In this document: positions 15,382-24,615 of the stretch, in pieces
How the letters are laid out: every line of letters starts with the position of its first letter
Position numbering within the stretch: position 1 is the first letter of the stretch
NCBI GenBank assembly: GCA_029248335.1
Contig: JAQWJM010000050.1
Coordinates: 1-25,000 of the forward strand
Origin: Phycisphaerales bacterium
GTDB taxonomy: Bacteria; Planctomycetota; Phycisphaerae; Phycisphaerales; SM1A02
Direction: 5' to 3'
DNA: 25,000 bases
Program-made: the position numbers and the translations under genes
Notes under the pieces: generated by a model
Seen by the model: only the letters and a program-made list of their open reading frames with translations
Databases searched by the model: none
Told to the model about the DNA's origin: nothing

Positions 15382-16743
15382 ATGAAAGAGTTCGAGTCCC
15401 CGATAGAAATCACGTTCGACGTGAGCCGGATCTACAAGGAACGGCTCGCGGACGTCGCGTCGTTCCGGTTTCGAAATCGGGCCGATGAGCGTTTTCATCT
15501 CGTCGTCAATCTGAGAAGTCGGATCTTCTCCCGCCCGGTCGAAGTCGATCTCAAGCTCGGACCGGCGCAGGTCCGGACGCATCGAATCCCGCTGGAGCTG
15601 CCGTGCCGCGAGACGTGCTCCGAAGGCCGGGGCAGTTCGGGCCGCCATCCCATCCAGATCATGCTCCTGATCTCCGAGGGAGACACGCCGAACGACGAAC
15701 GACACGCCTTCACCGGCGAGAAGATGACCATGGTCCTGGAGGACGACGCCAGTCCCCGGACCATCGTGAACCACATCAACGTGAAGATCGAGCAGCATGG
15801 CGACAAGGCCGGCTGGGGCGCGATCAACGAGATCAACATGCCGGCGGCCGAGATCCAGGACGATCCTGAATCGAACAACGATTTCCTTGAACGACTGAGC
15901 ACGCTTCCTCCCGCGTTCGAGCCGATCCCGCTCGACTACGAAGGCGTGATGGACGCGTCCCGGACCGCGATTCCCTCGATCGTCGACCGCAGTCCCTCGA
16001 CGCCGACGCTCGATCGATGCGCCATCGACCGACCACGAAGCCGCTCGCGGATCCTCGCCCTGACCGGGCGTTCCATCAACTTCGGCAAACGGCGGAAGGA
16101 CGTCGACGTCACCACCTGGCACCTGCCGCGGACGAGTTCCAACGACGAACGAACGAAGCGGATCTCCGGGGTGCAGTGTCGACTGGAGATGACCGGTGAG
16201 GGCATCTGCCTCGAGCATCTTTCCGCCACCAACCAGACCCGCCTCGACGATGTCTCCGTGAAGCAGAGAACGCCGATCGACCTCCATGGAATCTCGAACC
16301 TGCATCTGCCCGGGGGCTTCCAGCTCGAGTTGATCCCGCAACACGTTCCTGCCACCTTCGCGCAACACGCCACCGCCTGGCGTCGCCTCGGTGACGCCAC
16401 CTTCCAGGAGGCGTGCCGCTGGTCCGAGAGGACCCACATCGGCGGCCTCCTGATCCGACGCACCGATGCCCTCCGCTCGGTCGAGGAGTATCTCTGGATC
16501 CTTTCCGCGATCGCGGCGCCGCGATGCGGAGACGACCTGCCTCCGTTCACGCTCGCCGCCATCGAGGGCCTCCACGTCTTCGCGATCGGCTCGGGCAACG
16601 GCGCCACCATTCGAAACGCGGACGACGACGCCCCGATGCTCGAGAACGCCGCCTGTCGACTGGCGATCGACGACTCGGTCGCCTGGGACGACGGACGGCT
16701 CGAATTCAACGAATGGCGACAGTCCGGCCTCGACGACGACTGA
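15382..16743 (+). CDS. FHA (forkhead-associated, phosphothreonine-binding) domain protein; N-terminal 250 aa of unknown function
   Basis: RISGVQCRLEMTGEGICLEHLSATNQTRLDDVSVKQRTPIDLHGISNLHLPGGFQLEL fits the FHA consensus (SRxHa..., LeDLgStNGT, L.dGD.i.lG). Third codon positions are GC-biased. The antisense ORF 14944..16884 is low-complexity. Confidence 0.65.
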   Translation: MKEFESPIEITFDVSRIYKERLADVASFRFRNRADERFHLVVNLRSRIFSRPVEVDLKLGPAQVRTHRIPLELPCRETCSEGRGSSGRHPIQIMLLISEGDTPNDERHAFTGEKMTMVLEDDASPRTIVNHINVKIEQHGDKAGWGAINEINMPAAEIQDDPESNNDFLERLSTLPPAFEPIPLDYEGVMDASRTAIPSIVDRSPSTPTLDRCAIDRPRSRSRILALTGRSINFGKRRKDVDVTTWHLPRTSSNDERTKRISGVQCRLEMTGEGICLEHLSATNQTRLDDVSVKQRTPIDLHGISNLHLPGGFQLELIPQHVPATFAQHATAWRRLGDATFQEACRWSERTHIGGLLIRRTDALRSVEEYLWILSAIAAPRCGDDLPPFTLAAIEGLHVFAIGSGNGATIRNADDDAPMLENAACRLAIDDSVAWDDGRLEFNEWRQSGLDDD

Positions 16744-16905
16744 CCGGACCGCGACCGGAACCCGTGTGCTCGACGCGGATGGAGCGTCACAGGCGAGCTT
16801 CGCAAGACGTGATGATCTTCTCATCGTCGGGCTCCGCGGGTCGCGGTCGGGAGAAGGGGTGTCGATCCACCGAAGTGCCCGCACCCCGGATGGACGATGC
16901 TCGCC

Positions 16906-19900
16906 CTAGGAGCCGTCGCCCGCCGATGCGACGTTCACCTTCGATTCGAAACCGGCATTCGCCGTCTCCGAGGACCGACCGGGATCGGCACTCGATCCGG
17001 GCTCGGTCTCGTCACCGCGAGCGACCGTGGAGATCCTCACGCGGAGGCCTTCGGGCGGCGTGCACTGGCCGGACGGATTGGACCCCCAGCCGACGACCGA
17101 GCCGTCCGACAGGAGAGCGATCGTGTGGTCGCCGCCCGCGGCCACGCTCGCCACCGGATTCTCCGGCGTGCCGATCCCCGGAGGGACGTCGCACTGACCG
17201 TAGTTGTTCCCGCCCCAACACGCGACCGAGCCGTTCGCGAGCACGGCCACGGTGTGGTTGTCTCCCGCCGACACGGTCGCGACGGGGTTCTCCGGCGTGC
17301 CGATCCCGTCCGGAACATCGCACTGACCGGGTCCGTTGTAACCCCAGCAGACGATCGAGCCGTTCAACAGCACGGCGACGGTGTGGGAACTTCCGGCCGC
17401 CACGTTCGAGACCGGATTCTCCGGAGTCCCGATTCCGCTCGGGACGTCGCACTGGCCGATGAGGTTGTTCCCCCAGCAGACGACGGAACCGTCCGCCAGC
17501 AGCGCGACGGTGTGGCGGGTACCCACGGCGACTCGATCCACGGGATTCTCAGACGTGCCGACCCCCTCCGGAACGTCGCACTGGCCGGAGCCGTTGAAGC
17601 CCCAGCAGACCACCGAACCGTCCGCAAGCAACGCGACGGTGTGGAAGTAGCCCGCGGCCGCGCTCGCGACCGGGTTCTTCGCCGTGCCGACCTGGATCGG
17701 CACGTCGCACTGGCCGTCGTTGTTGCCGCCCCAGCAGGTGACCGAACCGTCCGCGGACACCGCCACGGAATGGGAGCCGCCCGCCGCCACCTTCATCACG
17801 GCGTTGTCGTTCGAGCCGATTCCTTCGGGGACGTCGCACTGGCCGTCCTGGTTGCCGCCCCAGCACGCGATCGTGCCGTCTTCGACGACGGTCACGGTGT
17901 GCACGCCACCGGCGGAGATCCGACCGATGTTGGCGGTGATCCGTTCGTGGCCGGCATCGAGACGGGCCGCTTCGATCTTGGCCGCTTCGAAACGCCGATC
18001 CAGCACGATCTTCGTCAACGCCGCCCGGCGATCATCGAGATTCGTCTTCGCGGCGAGTCGCGCGACGTCGGCGAGCTCGAACTTCAATCGCGAAAGGTCG
18101 CACTGTCCCTCGTTGTTACCGCCCCAGCTGGAGACCGAGCCGTCGGCCAGCACCGCGATGGTGTGGGCACCACCGGCGATGACGCTCGCCACCGGACGAT
18201 CCGGCGTGCCGATCTCGACCGGAATCGTGCACTGGCCCGAGTTGTCTCGTCCCCACGCCGCGAGCGAGCCGTCCATGAGCAGGGCGACGGTGTGATCGTC
18301 ACCCGCGGTCACGCTCGCGACCGGATTCTTCGCGGTGCCGACCTTCGTCGGGACGTCGCACTGGCCGTGCTCGTTGTCACCCCAGCAGACGACCGAACCG
18401 TCCGCGAGGACCGCGACCGAGTGCTCCGCGCCCGCGATCACGTTCGCGACGGGATTTCGAGGCGTGCCGATGTCGACCGGCACATCGCACTGCCGAGCCG
18501 TGTTGCGTCCCCAGCAGGCCACCGAACCATCCGCGAGCACCGCGATGGTGTGGTCATCGCCCGCGGCCACGCTCGCGACCGTGTTCTCCCCCACTCCGAT
18601 TCCTTCCGGAACGTCGCACTGTCCATCGACGTTCTGCCCCCAGCAGGCGACGGAACCGTCCTTGAGCATCGCCACGGTGTGATAGCGGCCGGGAACCACG
18701 CTTGCGACCGGATTCTCCAGCGTGCCGATTCCCTCCGGCACCTCGCACTGGCCGTGGTCGTTGTATCCCCAGCAGGCCACCGAGCCGTCCGCGAGCAGGG
18801 CGACGGTGTGATGGCGGCCCGGTTCGACGCTCAAGACGGGATTCTCCGGCGTCCCGATTCCGCGTGGAATCTTTCGTTCGCCGAAGTAGTTGAAGCCCCA
18901 GCAGCCCTTCGGACCGAGCGAGCCGTCGGAAAGAACCGCGACCGTGATATCCCCGCCGGCGGCGATCGACCGCACGGGAAGCGGCATGAACCACCAGAAC
19001 GCGAACGTACCGATCGCCGCGAGCGTGGTGACGAAGGCGACCGATCGGCCGACACGACGCCGCCTCAGCGCCGCGACGTGGCGGGCGTTCCCGACGGTCC
19101 GGCGATGCGCTTCCAGCGCCTGCGACCATCGCTTGCGATTCGTCAACGCGATCTTGCGCAGTTCGATCGCGCCCGCCCGCGCTTCCTCCCACGCCAGCGC
19201 CGTCACGTGCAGATCGACCTGATCCATGAGGTCCGATTGCCGCGTCATTCCGTCGCTCAGGGCCGGGTTCCGTTCGCCACCGGAACCGATCTCCTTGATC
19301 AATCCCCTGGTATCGGCGACGATCACGTCGATCTCCGGACGCAGTCCCAGGTACTCCTGCCGCGCCTTCGAGGTCTTCCGAATCCAGGCGCAGTGCTTGT
19401 CCACGAGGCCGCGAACGGATCTCGTCGTGGACAGCACGCCCATCCAGTCACCTGCTTGCGTCTGAGCTTTCACCCGGGCGTCGAGGCTGATCCGCTTCGC
19501 CCGGAACTCCTCGAACCGCGATCGGCCGCCCAGCGCGGTCTCCGTCTCGCAGGAGATCAGTTCCTCGTCGAGATGGGCGATCTGCGCACGGACCTTCATG
19601 ACCTTCCGATGGACGGTGAGCACGCCCTCGGACCAGGCGACGTGTGATTCGATCAGATCACGCAACGTCGACAGCGTCGCTTCCGCCTTTATCCACTCGC
19701 CCTCGCCGATCTGACGCGAGAGATCCTCGTCCAGCTTCGCTCGCCCGGAACGGAACTCCCGGGTCTTGGCCACTTCGCTCAGATCGACTCGAAGATCGAT
19801 CTCCGCGATTCGGGCGTCGCATTCCTTGATCTCTTCGCGAAGCGTCTCGGTTCGCTGTCGAATGTCCGAGATCTGTCTCAGACGCGACCGTTGTGCTTCG

Positions 19901-21504
19901 GCCTGGGTGTGGAGATCACTGGCGGTGGCTCGTGCCTCGAGCCACGCCTGCGAGGTCATCTCCGTCTCCAGTCGATCCTTCAATTCAACGCGATTCGACC
20001 GATACGCCACGATCTTCGGATCGGAATCGTGATCCGACTCGCTCTCGAGCGAACCGAGGTCACCATCGATCCGATCGACGTCGGCGATGAAACGAATCAC
20101 TTCCTCGCGGGCCGTGCGCAGCGAACGCACCCACTTCCGATGCGTCGACACCGGCTCGATGATGGCCTTTGCGGTCTGACACGCGGACGACCAGTCCAGG
20201 GCACCGACTTCCTTCTCGAGACGTCGATCGAGCTCCGTACGATTCGTCTTGTAGGCCTGCGAACGAGGCAGTTCATGCAGATCAAGTCCCACGCGATCCG
20301 CATTCAGCCCCTTGTCGATCTCCAGAATGTCCGCCCGCAGTCGCCGGAAGGCGTCATAGGGCGCGCGTGCCGACTGGATCTCTTCGTAGAGTCCGCACGC
20401 CCGCTCGAGAATCGCCGCCGCATCCGACCAGAGCCGGCCGAGCTTGTTCTCCTTCGCCGACTCGAGAAAATGACCAGCTCGCTCGAATTTCGCCATATAG
20501 GCCTGCGGAAGCGGCTCGCCTTCCTCCAGGACCCGCTTCGCCTCGCGACCCAGGATCCGCACCCGACTCTCGAGATCCACGAGATCGGCGGCGCTGCGAG
20601 GCGACCCATCCGAAGGCTGGGGCGAGGCGCTGCGGGCGGTCTTCGGCCGGGGAGCGGCGGCGCTTCCCTCGAACTGGAAGAACGCCTTGCACGACCTCGG
20701 TCGATCGGCGGGATCCTTCGAGAGGCCATTCATCAGGAGTTCCGAGATCTCCAGCCCCTCGAGCTCGCGAGGCATGTCCGGAATCTCCTCGAGGATCTGG
20801 TGCCGAAGGTCGCCACGACTGAACGGTGGCTCGCCCGAGAGGCACTCCCACATCGTCGCCGCGAGGCTGTAGATGTCCTGCGCCGCGGCGGGTTTTCGTC
20901 CCCGAAGCTGTTCCGGCGACATGTAGGGCAGCGTCCCGGAGTTCGACTCCCGGCCCGTCAACAACGTCGAAGTCTCCTTCGCCTCTCGCGCGATTCCGAA
21001 ATCCATGATGAGCGGCGTGCCGTCGTCACGGATCATGATGTTCGAGGGCTTCACGTCGCGATGGATCACACCGCGACGGTGCGCGTAGTCGAGCGCCTCG
21101 CCGATCGGGCCGAAGACCCGGACCACTTCGGATTCGTCCATCCGGTCGCGGTCCACGAGGATCTCCTCGATCGACTGCCCGTCGACGTGATCCATGACGA
21201 GGAAAGGCTGGCCTGAATCCATCTCCTCGAAGCCACGCACCGTCACGACGTTCGGGTGCGAGAGCTCCATGGCGTGGAGCGCTTCTCGCTTCAATCCGGC
21301 GATCGCCCGCTTGTTCGCCGCGAGAAACGAGGGAAGCAGTTTCACCGCGAACAGACGGTCGTCGAGCTTGAGATCCTCGACCAGATGCACTTCGCCCATT
21401 CCGCCGGCGCCGAGACGGCGGACCACGCGATACCGACCGGCAAGCAACGGGTGCTTGCCTTCGGGAATCGTCTGGCCGAACTGGTCGGGAGCGGGGGCGG
21501 ACAT
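16906..21504 (-). CDS. Receptor-type Ser/Thr protein kinase (1532 aa): kinase domain, ~6 helical ~80-aa repeats, one TM helix, two 7-bladed RCC1-like beta-propellers
   Basis: Kinase motifs are GAGGMGEV (Gly loop), AVKLL (VAIK), HRDVKPSN, DFGIA and SPE. The TM helix is VAFVTTLAAIGTFAFWWFMPLPV. The RCC1 unit HTVALLADGSVxCWGxNxxGQCDVP occurs 14 times. The most plausible start is the Met 20 codons inside the longest ORF (MSAPAPDQ...). Confidence 0.9.
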   Translation of the reverse strand: MSAPAPDQFGQTIPEGKHPLLAGRYRVVRRLGAGGMGEVHLVEDLKLDDRLFAVKLLPSFLAANKRAIAGLKREALHAMELSHPNVVTVRGFEEMDSGQPFLVMDHVDGQSIEEILVDRDRMDESEVVRVFGPIGEALDYAHRRGVIHRDVKPSNIMIRDDGTPLIMDFGIAREAKETSTLLTGRESNSGTLPYMSPEQLRGRKPAAAQDIYSLAATMWECLSGEPPFSRGDLRHQILEEIPDMPRELEGLEISELLMNGLSKDPADRPRSCKAFFQFEGSAAAPRPKTARSASPQPSDGSPRSAADLVDLESRVRILGREAKRVLEEGEPLPQAYMAKFERAGHFLESAKENKLGRLWSDAAAILERACGLYEEIQSARAPYDAFRRLRADILEIDKGLNADRVGLDLHELPRSQAYKTNRTELDRRLEKEVGALDWSSACQTAKAIIEPVSTHRKWVRSLRTAREEVIRFIADVDRIDGDLGSLESESDHDSDPKIVAYRSNRVELKDRLETEMTSQAWLEARATASDLHTQAEAQRSRLRQISDIRQRTETLREEIKECDARIAEIDLRVDLSEVAKTREFRSGRAKLDEDLSRQIGEGEWIKAEATLSTLRDLIESHVAWSEGVLTVHRKVMKVRAQIAHLDEELISCETETALGGRSRFEEFRAKRISLDARVKAQTQAGDWMGVLSTTRSVRGLVDKHCAWIRKTSKARQEYLGLRPEIDVIVADTRGLIKEIGSGGERNPALSDGMTRQSDLMDQVDLHVTALAWEEARAGAIELRKIALTNRKRWSQALEAHRRTVGNARHVAALRRRRVGRSVAFVTTLAAIGTFAFWWFMPLPVRSIAAGGDITVAVLSDGSLGPKGCWGFNYFGERKIPRGIGTPENPVLSVEPGRHHTVALLADGSVACWGYNDHGQCEVPEGIGTLENPVASVVPGRYHTVAMLKDGSVACWGQNVDGQCDVPEGIGVGENTVASVAAGDDHTIAVLADGSVACWGRNTARQCDVPVDIGTPRNPVANVIAGAEHSVAVLADGSVVCWGDNEHGQCDVPTKVGTAKNPVASVTAGDDHTVALLMDGSLAAWGRDNSGQCTIPVEIGTPDRPVASVIAGGAHTIAVLADGSVSSWGGNNEGQCDLSRLKFELADVARLAAKTNLDDRRAALTKIVLDRRFEAAKIEAARLDAGHERITANIGRISAGGVHTVTVVEDGTIACWGGNQDGQCDVPEGIGSNDNAVMKVAAGGSHSVAVSADGSVTCWGGNNDGQCDVPIQVGTAKNPVASAAAGYFHTVALLADGSVVCWGFNGSGQCDVPEGVGTSENPVDRVAVGTRHTVALLADGSVVCWGNNLIGQCDVPSGIGTPENPVSNVAAGSSHTVAVLLNGSIVCWGYNGPGQCDVPDGIGTPENPVATVSAGDNHTVAVLANGSVACWGGNNYGQCDVPPGIGTPENPVASVAAGGDHTIALLSDGSVVGWGSNPSGQCTPPEGLRVRISTVARGDETEPGSSADPGRSSETANAGFESKVNVASAGDGS
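17052..18972. repeat. Tandem ~130-bp coding repeats (14 RCC1-like blades in two blocks, split by a ~55-aa helical insert at ~17922..18084)
   Basis: The antisense motif gtcgcactggcc (GQCD) recurs every ~129-132 nt. Other-frame ORFs repeat peptides such as GTSHWP and QQTTEPSA. Confidence 0.7.
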
Positions 21505-21779
21505 CAACAGACTCTTACGAAGGAACGTGTGCGAATTCCAGCAGTTCCCCCGAACCACAAACACTGCGCCCCTCGATCTTAACGACAGAAACGTGCGAAA
21601 GCCTCATGGAAAAACAAACCGCCAAACACCGCCATAAACCGCCAGTGACCGCAAGTCGTCGGCGTGACTTTTGCGCTTCAAAGCATCATCCGTTTATTCG
21701 GACTCCACGCTCGCGCGCATGCATCGCGGCACGACGCCGCCGCCATCACGTTGATGACGCATGAAGAACGCACCACCCC

Positions 21780-23748: not shown

Positions 23749-24615
23749 TCACTGAACGATGCCCCAGCTTGCCAGCAGCAGGCCGAGGTCGCTTCCGTTC
23801 ACCACGCCATTCCGGTCGAGATCACCGTCGCAGTCCCCGCAGGGGCCCCAGTCGCCGATCTGAAGACCGAGGTCCGCGCCGTTCACGATTCCGTCACCGT
23901 TGATGTCCGCGGGCCTGGCCGGCTTCGGCCCCCACTCGACGATCAATCTCGGCAAGAGGGTCACTGCGGGATTCTCACGACTCGTGATCTTGCAGGCGGT
24001 CTTTTCGACGGATTCGTCCCCGATCAGGATCCAGCCATGGTTGGGCTCGCCTTCGATCCAGGACTGGACGTCGGCCGCGAGCCCCGGACCTTCGATGAAG
24101 TACGGCCCGGTTTCGGCGATCGCCGCCGACCCGCTCGCGTCGTCGACGTAATCCCCCCCGGGCGTCGTCCATGATTCGGTGGGGAAGAATCGATAGCCCC
24201 AGGTCGCATCACCCGTCGCCGCCGGGGCGCCACGTCCTCCGGGGGAGAACGACGAAGACTCACCCCAGTCGGCAAGGCTCCGATGGAAAGAGATCGGGGC
24301 GGGAAACACGCCATCCTGGGGACGCTGGATCACCTGGATCCGGACCTTGGCGGAGATCACGGCCGCGTCGGCCGGAATGCCGGACACGTCGAATCGGATC
24401 AATGAACGCAGGAACGTGTTCGCCTGGACCGGGTCCCCCGGATCGGTGCGTCGGCCGATGAAGAGGGCCGTTCCGGCGCCGGACGAGAGGTCGTCGGCGA
24501 TCGGGCCGAACATCGCGGTGTCCCGATCCGGGACCACCTCATACGTCTCGGCGACCGCGGGGGACGCCAAGGCGAGCGTGACCGAAACGGCCAGGGGAAC
24601 GAAGTCGGTTTTCAT
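23749..24615 (-). CDS. Secreted protein with a C-terminal dockerin-like double repeat
   Basis: The signal peptide is MKTDFVPLAVSVTLALASPAVAETY. The C-terminus has DINGDGIVNGADLGLQIGDWGPC and DLDRNGVVNGSDLGLLLASWG (two EF-hand-like dockerin segments). GGAG sits 10 nt upstream of the ATG. Confidence 0.7.
   Translation of the reverse strand: MKTDFVPLAVSVTLALASPAVAETYEVVPDRDTAMFGPIADDLSSGAGTALFIGRRTDPGDPVQANTFLRSLIRFDVSGIPADAAVISAKVRIQVIQRPQDGVFPAPISFHRSLADWGESSSFSPGGRGAPAATGDATWGYRFFPTESWTTPGGDYVDDASGSAAIAETGPYFIEGPGLAADVQSWIEGEPNHGWILIGDESVEKTACKITSRENPAVTLLPRLIVEWGPKPARPADINGDGIVNGADLGLQIGDWGPCGDCDGDLDRNGVVNGSDLGLLLASWGIVQ

What the first reader, a model, noticed from the sequence alone, without database searches (positions are those of the whole stretch)
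19050..20480. Unrecognised ~80-aa helical repeat module (about 6 copies) between the kinase domain and the membrane
The cytoplasmic juxtamembrane region holds about six degenerate repeats. Their shared skeleton is (Y/F)RxxRxxLDxxL-x8-10-W-xxA-x6-L-x8-hxxW-x10-20. Examples are QAYKTNRTELDRRLEKEVGALDWSSACQTAKAIIEPVSTHRKWVRSLRTAREEVIRFIADVDRI and VAYRSNRVELKDRLETEMTSQAWLEARATASDLHTQAEAQRSRLRQISDIRQRTETLREEIKE. I do not recognise it as HAMP, spectrin, TPR or any other standard module. It could be a rigid spacer, a signalling helix or a docking scaffold.
Basis: seen in the sequence. Interest (0 to 1): 0.6.

Follow-up and report, generated by a model that had tools for sequence, protein, structure and literature searches.

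The report
Spectrin-like helical stalk in a kinase
A membrane-bound protein kinase of an uncultured marine planctomycete carries five real copies of an undescribed 83-residue helical repeat, predicted to stack into a spectrin/EzrA-like rod whose unit number differs between near-identical strains, most likely a stalk of adjustable length between kinase and membrane.

Summary
The repeat is real. Residues 435-840 of the 1532/1552-aa kinase (window 16906..21504/21564, minus strand) hold five tandem units of about 83 aa. Periodicity at 83/166/249 aa lies far above shuffles, and leave-one-out HMM E-values are 5e-8 to 1e-17. It belongs to a separate conserved 'head' module with a similar helix-turn-long-helix shape.

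No Pfam, NCBIfam or PDB sequence match exists. An exhaustive HMMER search of 1.84 billion representatives found only two fragments of the same small family, from marine Phycisphaerales.

AlphaFold2 (pLDDT 81 for the region, 92 for a two-bundle fragment) gives each unit a 22-residue helix, a turn at the invariant Trp and a 52-residue helix. The best structural matches are the two bacterial 'spectrin-like' proteins, BB0323-N and EzrA, at fold level only.

Unit number varies across relatives (0, 3, 4, 5, 6, 7). One exact one-unit indel separates proteins that are 99.9% identical. The first and last units are always kept.

Best reading: a length-variable, rigid three-helix-bundle stalk, possibly also a docking scaffold. 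This is a new sequence family of a known architectural kind, of moderate interest.

The parts
16906..21504 (-). Whole gene: Hanks-type Ser/Thr kinase, linker, head, five helical units, TM helix, two RCC1 propellers. It is 1532 aa from ATG 21504; the open frame extends to GTG 21564, which gives the 1552-aa numbering used here.
   Evidence: ORF. Pfam finds Pkinase and RCC1. The exact sequence is NCBI MDG1977666.1 'protein kinase [Phycisphaerales bacterium]', 1532 aa. The same gene is called as 1532 aa on four related contigs.
20695..21432 (-). Protein kinase domain (aa 45-290). The GxGxxG, VAVK, HRDVKPSN, DFG and SPE motifs are all present.
   Evidence: Pfam PF00069, E = 4e-41. The motifs were read in the translation.
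20602..20679 (-). Short Ser/Thr/Pro-rich linker (aa 296-321: FQFEGSAAAPRPKTARSASPQPSDGS). It is poorly conserved (25% identity to P0002).
   Evidence: That it is disordered or a phosphorylation site is inference.
20263..20601 (-). 'Head' module (aa 322-434). It contains DLVDLESRVRIL and FERAGHF(L/V)ESAKENK..RLWSDAA and is conserved in every family member, including those without units.
   Evidence: Alignment A3 has 77% mean column identity. The HMM hits all paralogues. It is not related to the unit by hhalign or by leave-one-out HMM. The AF2 model gives helices 4-27, 33-52 and 55-103.
20014..20262 (-). Unit a (R1, aa 435-517)
   Evidence: Leave-one-out E = 1e-17. It is orthologous to the first unit of P0001-3, P0008 and the L002 1592-aa protein.
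19765..20013 (-). Unit b (R2, aa 518-600)
   Evidence: Leave-one-out E = 3e-14. It is absent from P0001-3 and present in P0008 and the L002 protein.
19516..19764 (-). Unit c (R3, aa 601-683)
   Evidence: Leave-one-out E = 9e-15. It is absent from P0001-3.
19261..19515 (-). Unit d (R4, aa 684-768). This unit type is triplicated in L002 and duplicated in L003.
   Evidence: Leave-one-out E = 3e-13.
19045..19260 (-). Unit e (R5, aa 769-840), the last unit. Its long helix is predicted to run straight into the TM helix.
   Evidence: Leave-one-out E = 5e-8. The AF2 helix spans model residues 471-537, i.e. aa 792-858, but pLDDT falls to 53-60 there.
18976..19044 (-). Single transmembrane helix (aa about 841-863). 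The N-terminal flank is RRRRVGRS, so kinase and repeats lie on the cytoplasmic side by the positive-inside rule.
   Evidence: Kyte-Doolittle maximum of 1.72 at 842-860, with flanks shown. The topology is inference.
17065..18957 (-). RCC1-repeat region (aa about 870-1500): two propellers separated by a helical insert (about 1157-1215).
   Evidence: Pfam RCC1_2 (13 stretches) and WD40_RLD. There is a 129-nt tandem period at DNA level.
15382..16743 (+). Convergent 453-aa neighbour gene, syntenic with the kinase in all relatives. Its N-terminal ~210 aa replaces the kinase domain in front of head plus units in a paralogue, and its middle part looks FHA-like.
   Evidence: Synteny. Fusion in L002 3226..8004. 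A profile against PDB gives weak hits, 5 of 8 of which are FHA domains (best E = 0.018). There is no Pfam hit.

Best explanation
The segment is a tandem array of five 83-residue units. Each unit is a 22-residue helix, a tight turn at an invariant Trp, a 52-residue helix and a short loop.

The second half of each long helix, the next short helix and the first half of the next long helix pack into an antiparallel three-helix bundle. The array plus the head therefore forms a continuous rod of about six bundles. This is the connecting principle of spectrin, EzrA and BB0323-N.

From helix lengths the rod would be roughly 23-27 nm long if straight (inference). It ends in a helix that continues into the membrane anchor.

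I think it works as a rigid stalk of evolvable length. It holds the N-terminal effector domain, here an active-looking Hanks kinase, at a set distance from the membrane and from the RCC1 propellers. Length is changed in steps of about 4 nm by in-register gain or loss of internal units.

Shown: the repeat, its rarity and the copy-number variation. Predicted: the helix pattern and bundle fold. Inferred: rod length, rigidity and the spacer role.
For: Repeat statistics.

Structure prediction:
- The region model has pLDDT 81, with a strictly repeating pattern of 22-residue helix, 3-residue turn, about 52-residue helix and 5-8-residue loop.
- An independent two-bundle fragment (aa 567-733, built with an MSA of non-overlapping unit pairs) has pLDDT 91.6 and pTM 0.78, with five helices of 26/22/53/23/26 residues.

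Hydrophobic pattern: an a/d-type stripe runs the whole length of the long helix (unit columns 24, 27, 31, 34, 37/38, 41, 44/45, 48, 51, 55, 58, 62, 65, 69, 72, 76). Both halves are therefore buried.

Fold matches:
- All other hits are single three-helix bundles.
- Foldseek TM-scores are 0.56/0.59 to 6rjx.

Length variability:
- Window: a-b-c-d-e.
- P0001-3: a-d-e, missing exactly two units in register.
- P0004: four units.
- L002 paralogue: a-b-c-d-d-d-e.
- L003: a-b-c-d-d-e. It differs from L002 only by an exact 87-aa one-unit indel in otherwise 99.9% identical proteins. The duplicated units are 92% identical in DNA.
- The first and last units are always retained.

Rate of change: units diverge faster (32-55% identity) than kinase (81%) or head (73%), as expected if mainly the core pattern is constrained.

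Paralogues P0005-7 carry a plain (AERVE)n helical stretch and no TM in place of the units. An elongated helical connector between head and propeller is thus the conserved theme.

The module also follows a non-kinase N-domain in the L002 paralogue, so it is not a kinase-specific regulatory element.
Against: - There is no experimental structure. The MSAs are shallow (5-10 sequences), and I could not inspect model coordinates. Bundle packing, straightness and length are therefore inferred from helix lengths and from which PDB chains align.
- Some polar positions are conserved across units (R8, D12, H41, R52, D66). Unit types are also positionally orthologous across paralogues. Both could mean specific binding surfaces rather than a passive spacer.
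- Oligomeric state is unknown.
- A spacer role has no direct functional evidence, and the organism is uncultured.
Confidence: 0.5

Rival explanations
1. Docking scaffold. The rod's main job is to bind partners such as substrates, the neighbouring FHA-like protein or other kinases of the cluster, on unit-specific surfaces. EzrA binds FtsZ this way, BB0323-N binds BB0238, and spectrin repeats bind ligands. This can coexist with the spacer role.
For: - The closest structural analogues are all protein-interaction rods (PMC4243239; PMC12758692).
- Unit types a-e keep their identity and order across paralogues.
- Polar positions R8, D12, H41, R52 and D66 are conserved, as is a polar stretch (HRKWVRSL.TAREE) in unit a.
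- The N-domain of the syntenic 453-aa neighbour is fused to the same head plus units in a paralogue. This is a Rosetta-stone type link.
- That neighbour has an FHA-like core.
Against: - Internal units are gained and lost freely, even between 99.9% identical proteins.
- Paralogues replace the units by a simple (AERVE)n helix.
- Units evolve much faster than head and kinase.
- No partner has been shown, and the FHA assignment is weak (E = 0.018).
Confidence: 0.3
2. Signal-transmitting helical stalk. The region forms a dimeric coiled coil that relays a conformational change from the periplasmic RCC1 propellers through the membrane to the kinase, like the signalling helices, HAMP or stalks of sensor histidine kinases and chemoreceptors.
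For: There is a heptad-like hydrophobic pattern. The last unit's long helix is predicted to be continuous with the TM helix. The location lies between sensor-like and catalytic domains.
Against: - Each unit has a short return helix and tight turns with an invariant Trp, so it folds back on itself rather than forming one long parallel coil.
- Unit indels of 83-87 aa, with variable loops, are not multiples of the heptad. They would not preserve helical register.
- P0004 has four units and a C-terminal tail anchor with no outside domain to signal from. P0005-7 have no TM at all.
- There is no HAMP or other Pfam match.
Confidence: 0.1
3. No real module: the apparent repeats are a compositional effect of an Arg/Glu/Ala/Leu-rich, high-GC coding region, or the wrong strand or frame was read.
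For: The window has about 65% GC and long spurious ORFs on both strands. The region is rich in charged residues.
Against: Composition-preserving shuffles never approach the observed periodicity or unit scores. The frame carries Pkinase and RCC1 domains on either side. NCBI calls the same gene. Homologues conserve the units.
Confidence: 0.01

Closest known systems
EzrA (Bacillus/Staphylococcus divisome protein; PDB 4uxv, 4uy3; PMC4243239)
   Different: - No sequence similarity (<=12% identity; no Pfam EzrA hit).
- EzrA repeats are about 100 aa and not recognisable as repeats by sequence, whereas here they are 83 aa with a clear consensus.
- The EzrA anchor is N-terminal and the rod ends in a four-helix bundle. 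Here the anchor is C-terminal to the rod and the rod carries a kinase.
- Curvature and handedness could not be compared without coordinates.
- Foldseek TM-score is only 0.40.
BB0323 N-terminal domain of Borrelia burgdorferi (PDB 6rjw/6rjx, 9q9v; PMC12758692)
   Different: It shares only 8-10% identity. It is periplasmic, consists of only two bundles rather than an expandable array, is linked to a LysM domain and has no kinase.
Eukaryotic spectrin repeats (spectrin, alpha-actinin, dystrophin; Pfam PF00435)
   Same: The architectural principle is the same: serial three-helix bundles connected by continuous helices, a conserved Trp, a heptad pattern, repeat number varying between family members, and use as rods, spacers and docking platforms.
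   Different: - The unit is 83 aa, not about 106 aa.
- There is no Pfam Spectrin hit even at E<=1.
- The Trp sits at the turn before the long helix.
Juxtamembrane domains of bacterial Hanks-type kinases (PknB, PrkC, StkP)
   Same: The position is the same: cytoplasmic, between the catalytic domain and the single TM helix of a receptor-type Ser/Thr kinase with an extracytoplasmic repeat domain.
   Different: Those juxtamembrane regions are described as intrinsically disordered and as regulated by phosphorylation (abstracts of PMC12636448 and PMC12077195). Here only about 25 residues look like that, and some 520 residues are a predicted folded helical rod.
Scaffold/dimerisation domain of TBK1/IKK kinases
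   Different: That domain is a single elongated bundle, not a tandem repeat. The Pfam TBK1_CCD1 match is noise (E = 0.61), and the similarity is weaker than to generic three-helix bundles.

Membership tests
Spectrin repeat (Pfam PF00435) | Significant match to the Spectrin profile | tested here: not met
   hmmscan of the whole protein at E<=1 lists no Spectrin hit.
Spectrin repeat (Pfam PF00435) | Repeat length of about 100-110 residues | tested here: not met
   The period is 83 aa from the self-diagonal analysis, and HMM envelopes are 81-86 aa.
Spectrin repeat (Pfam PF00435) | Antiparallel three-helix bundles in a head-to-tail array, joined by a continuous helix | tested here: inconclusive
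   The AF2 helix pattern and alignment of 139-156 of 167 residues to BB0323-N and EzrA fit this arrangement. However, these are only predicted models, I could not inspect the coordinates, and Foldseek gives no hit at E<=0.001.
Spectrin repeat (Pfam PF00435) | Left-handed helix connectivity, in contrast to the right-handed connectivity of EzrA | not testable with these tools
EzrA family (Pfam PF06160) | Sequence match to EzrA, an N-terminal TM anchor and a C-terminal four-helix bundle | tested here: not met
   There is no Pfam hit. The TM helix lies C-terminal to the rod, and the N-terminus is a kinase.
HAMP / signalling-helix linkers | An approximately 50-aa two-helix unit matching PF00672, directly after a TM helix | tested here: not met
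   There is no Pfam hit. Units are 83 aa with helices of 22 and 52 residues, and they lie N-terminal to the TM helix.
TPR / Sel1-like repeats | A 34-40-aa helix-turn-helix unit matching TPR or Sel1 profiles | tested here: not met
   There are no TPR or Sel1 hits in aa 300-865. Helix lengths and the period do not fit.
Hanks-type Ser/Thr kinase (the host protein) | Pkinase domain with catalytic motifs | tested here: met
   PF00069, E = 4e-41, above the gathering threshold. HRD, DFG, the catalytic Lys and the Gly-loop were read.

The most novel reading that the evidence does not exclude
The array is a genetically tunable molecular ruler. By gaining or losing about 4-nm units through in-register recombination, populations of these marine Phycisphaerales would set how far from the membrane the kinase domain operates, and therefore which targets it reaches. 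In a paralogue the same would apply to the N-domain of the FHA-like neighbour.

This would make it the first sequence-recognisable, copy-number-polymorphic family of spectrin-like repeats in bacteria, and a structured alternative to the disordered juxtamembrane regions of other bacterial receptor kinases.
Probability: 0.2. Interest if true: 0.7.

Novelty: new variant of a known kind. Interest (0 to 1): 0.45.

Why it matters
Serial spectrin-like three-helix-bundle rods are regarded as rare in bacteria. EzrA was described as the only such bacterial protein (PMC4243239), and BB0323 as a rare further case (PMC12758692). In both, the repeats cannot be recognised by sequence.

Here a bacterial family shows the same predicted architecture with three differences:
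- a clear 83-aa sequence repeat;
- whole-unit copy-number polymorphism between nearly identical strains;
- a new context, the juxtamembrane region of a Hanks-type receptor kinase, which in the studied kinases is disordered.

If the rod model holds, it offers a natural length series (0, 3, 4, 5, 6 and 7 units). That series could test how the distance between membrane and catalytic domain matters for bacterial Ser/Thr kinase signalling. It also offers a compact repeat for protein engineering.

The limits are that everything structural is predicted, the family is tiny, and the organisms are uncultured.

Tried and rejected
- **Sequence families.** Pfam on the whole protein at E<=1, NCBIfam on aa 322-866 and a unit profile against PDB sequences gave nothing but noise. 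The noise included the proteasomal ATPase coiled coil (E = 0.046), BLOC1_2, TBK1_CCD1 and NNMT.
- **Wider homologues.**
  - The word-indexed search with the whole region gave 7 proteins, all the same kinase family.
  - The same search with the unit profile returned only one fragment.
  - The exhaustive HMMER search of 1.84 billion representatives returned two fragments.
  - The GTDB genome scan with the head found no relative (the unit alignment was too variable for that tool).
  - The JGI metagenome scan found one weak locus, L085.
  - Caveat: one search missed the window's own protein cluster, which is in the collection. One search did not list P0001-4 or the L002 protein. The census is therefore a lower bound.
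- **R0 as a sixth unit.** Rejected on sequence grounds.
- **DNA-level repeat.** None in the helical region.
- **afdb50 fold search.** The library was unavailable, so I could not ask whether similar rods exist among predicted structures.
- **Planctomycete membrane-coat-like proteins** (beta-propeller plus alpha-solenoid, PMC2799638). Considered and rejected. The domain order is reversed, a TM helix separates the parts, the propeller is RCC1 and the helical part is three-helix bundles rather than a solenoid.
- **Literature.** Searches for RCC1 kinases or spectrin repeats in Planctomycetes found nothing relevant.
- **The 453-aa neighbour.** Pfam, NCBIfam and PDB searches with the single sequence gave nothing. 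Only the family profile gave weak FHA hits.
Full report
**The gene**

The finding lies inside one long gene on the minus strand. The open frame runs from 16906 to GTG 21564 (1552 aa), and I use that numbering throughout. Homologues start at the position of M21. NCBI annotates the identical sequence as a 1532-aa 'protein kinase [Phycisphaerales bacterium]', MDG1977666.1, which starts at ATG 21504.

The domain layout is:
- a Pkinase domain at 45-290, with all catalytic motifs readable;
- about 13 RCC1 repeats at roughly 870-1500;
- one hydrophobic segment at 842-860, preceded by RRRRVGRS, which places the kinase and the region in question on the cytoplasmic side by the positive-inside rule (topology is inferred);
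- no Pfam or NCBIfam match between residues 300 and 865.

The window's MetK is 92% identical to that of the marine MAG 'Phycisphaera sp. TMED9'. The surrounding genes are housekeeping: metK, rsmB, a DnaJ-family gene, gatB and cyclophilins. This is therefore chromosomal DNA of a marine Phycisphaerales planctomycete.

**Is the repeat real?**

Yes.
- Self-comparison of residues 330-842 gives mean BLOSUM62 scores on the diagonals at offsets 83, 249 and 166 of 0.35, 0.18 and 0.06. The best value in any of 200 shuffles was -0.28.
- Pairwise local alignments among units R1-R4 have z-scores of 7-14.
- In a leave-one-out test, an HMM built from the other units finds R1-R4 at E = 1e-13 to 1e-17.
- The same test finds R5 at 5e-8 (19.3 bits), while the best of 2000 shuffled units scores 13.7 bits.
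By profile-profile comparison it shares only W-x-x-A with the unit (probability 1.8%).

There are thus five sequence-supported units: 435-517, 518-600, 601-683, 684-768 and 769-840, corresponding to nt 19045-20262.

They are preceded by a distinct 'head' (322-434). The head is the best conserved part of the whole non-catalytic region and is present in every relative (alignment A3).

Trp24 is invariant in all 23 that cover that column, Ala/Val27 is nearly so, and R8, L11, D12, L15, H41 and W44 are frequent. At DNA level the units are no longer recognisable in the window.

**How widespread is it?**

It is very narrow.
- The region as query found seven proteins among 5.8 billion, all the same kinase family from marine metagenomes.
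- An exhaustive HMMER search with the unit profile over 1.84 billion cluster representatives found two hits, both fragments of the family.
- A scan of 185,579 GTDB species genomes with the head found no relative.
- A scan of JGI metagenomes found one weak locus.
- These censuses are lower bounds, because known members were not all returned (compare with 39 and 80). No unrelated protein carries the unit at HMMER sensitivity.

**Predicted structure**

AlphaFold2 on residues 322-866, with a five-sequence alignment, gave mean pLDDT 81 and a strictly periodic pattern. Each unit is a helix of about 22 residues, a 3-residue turn at the invariant Trp, a helix of 52-53 residues and a loop of 5-8 residues. 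The head has the same shape plus an extra N-terminal helix. The last long helix runs on into the TM segment, though with low confidence there.

A second, independent model covered residues 567-733. That stretch runs from the second half of one long helix through the following short helix, the next long helix and the following short helix to the first half of the next long helix. Its alignment was built from non-overlapping unit pairs. It reached pLDDT 91.6 and pTM 0.78 with five helices.

The hydrophobic stripe with 3-4 spacing runs along the entire long helix. Both halves must therefore be packed.

- everything else is a single three-helix bundle of about 80 residues.

Foldseek finds nothing at E<=0.001. 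Its best TM-scores are 0.56/0.59 to BB0323-N and 0.40 to EzrA.

The EzrA paper defines the architecture as ~100-aa antiparallel triple-helical bundles in a head-to-tail array joined by long continuous helices (PMC4243239). The BB0323 authors assign that domain to the spectrin-repeat fold, 'rare in bacteria', with five helices (PMC12758692).

My reading is that the module is a short-period (83-aa) version of this architecture, similar at fold level and with no detectable homology. I could not inspect coordinates. Bundle packing, handedness, curvature and the length estimate (six bundles of about 3.8 nm, roughly 23-27 nm) are therefore inferences.

**Comparative anatomy**

This is the most informative evidence. 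Units fall into positionally orthologous types a-e.

| Protein | Units |
|---|---|
| Window | a-b-c-d-e |
| P0001-3 | a-d-e (lacking exactly b and c, in register) |
| P0004 | four divergent units, then a C-terminal tail anchor with no outside domain |
| P0005-7 | none, and no TM; head followed by an (AERVE)n helix and the propeller |
| L002 paralogue (1592 aa) | a-b-c-d-d-d-e |
| L003 counterpart (1505 aa) | a-b-c-d-d-e |

The L002 and L003 proteins are 99.9% identical apart from one exact 87-aa indel, placed as expected for an unequal crossover between neighbouring d units. Those d units are 92% identical in DNA.

Between the window protein and P0002, identity is 81% in the kinase, 73% in the head and 32-51% in the units.

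In the L002 paralogue the head plus units follow a ~210-aa domain instead of a kinase. That domain is homologous to the N-terminal half of the window's convergent 453-aa neighbour gene.

**Mechanism**

Five observations point the same way:
- the first and last units are always retained;
- internal units come and go in whole steps, even between strains;
- the units evolve fast, constrained mainly at core positions;
- a plain helical stretch replaces the units in some paralogues;
- the module is independent of which domain sits at its N-terminus.

I therefore favour a rigid stalk of adjustable length that sets the distance between the N-terminal effector domain and the membrane or propeller (confidence about 0.5).

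A docking-scaffold role is compatible with, and not excluded by, the conserved polar positions, the identity of unit types, the analogues' functions and the link to the neighbour gene (about 0.3).

A register-dependent signalling coiled coil is unlikely (about 0.1). The units fold back on themselves, unit indels do not preserve heptad register, and family members exist without an outside domain or without a membrane anchor.

A compositional artefact is excluded.

**Relation to known kinases**

The juxtamembrane regions of studied bacterial receptor kinases (PrkC, StkP) are described as disordered and phosphorylated (abstracts). Here only about 25 Ser/Thr/Pro-rich residues after the kinase look like that. 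The remaining ~520 residues are predicted to be a folded rod.

**Verdict**

The module is new as a sequence family, but its predicted fold is the spectrin/EzrA kind, and the spacer reading is favoured.
- Novelty: a new variant of a known kind.
- Interest is moderate (0.45). A recognisable, copy-number-polymorphic spectrin-like repeat in a bacterial kinase is unusual and gives a natural length series for experiments. Against that, all structural statements are predictions, the family is tiny and the hosts are uncultured.

Noticed in passing
window 15382-16743 (+); L002 3226-8004: The convergent 453-aa gene with no Pfam hit is syntenic with the kinase in all relatives. Its N-terminal ~210 aa (ESPIEI.FD.SRIYKERLADVASF.FRNRADE.FHL..NLRSRIF) is fused in a paralogue to head, 6-7 units, TM and RCC1 in place of the kinase domain. 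Its middle part (GRS..FGKRR.DVD...ISGxQCRL...S.TN.T) looks FHA-like: a family profile against PDB gives weak hits, 5 of 8 of which are FHA domains (Ki-67 E = 0.018).
   Followed up: partly
L001/L002 1-18352 (contig of 481 kb): In the relative genome, five or six paralogous kinase or RCC1 genes lie within 18 kb. The order is kinase-RCC1 (771 aa), a stand-alone 292-aa kinase whose C-terminus departs from the paralogues right after the catalytic domain, the 1592-aa head-units-TM-RCC1 protein, P0004 (kinase, units, tail anchor), then the 453-aa gene, an HTH_17 gene, a 242-aa gene, a Band_7 gene and two more kinase-RCC1 genes. This looks like a hotspot of domain shuffling. The window keeps the 453-aa, HTH_17 and Band_7 genes.
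   Followed up: partly
P0005, P0006, P0007 (aa ~395-450); window aa 1157-1215 = nt 17920-18096; L002 paralogue: Simple pentapeptide-like helical repeats, (AERVE)n and (AARLE)n, occur in two places. They sit between head and propeller in the TM-less paralogues, and between the two propellers of the L002 protein. At the latter position the window protein has a non-repetitive helical insert instead.
   Followed up: no
window 17062-18904: The RCC1 blades are still recognisable as a DNA tandem repeat (period 129 nt, 13.7 copies, 64% matches; sub-arrays 71-74%). This indicates recent or concerted expansion of the propeller blades, unlike the helical units.
   Followed up: no
window 21504-21564: The ORF extends 20 codons upstream to a GTG, but homologues and the NCBI annotation start at ATG 21504 (MSAPAPDQ...). 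Some ENA gene calls use the 1552-aa form (P0033).
   Followed up: yes
L090 5056-9718: On one Tara Oceans scaffold the same kinase gene is called as two genes (562 and 1004 aa). This is either a frameshift or an assembly error within or near the repeat region.
   Followed up: no
window 16897-19647 (+) and other long antisense ORFs: A 916-aa ORF lies antisense to the kinase gene and there are many other overlapping ORFs. They are the usual product of about 67% GC and have no domain hits.
   Followed up: partly
window 23749-24615 (-): A 288-aa ORF has a near-threshold Dockerin_1 match (E = 2e-4, 21.9 bits against a cut-off of 22.9). In L086 the next gene along also has a faint dockerin hit.
   Followed up: no
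tool behaviour: The word-indexed protein search did not return the window's own protein cluster, although the exact sequence is in the collection. The representative library did not list known full-length members. Counts of family members are therefore lower bounds.
   Followed up: partly
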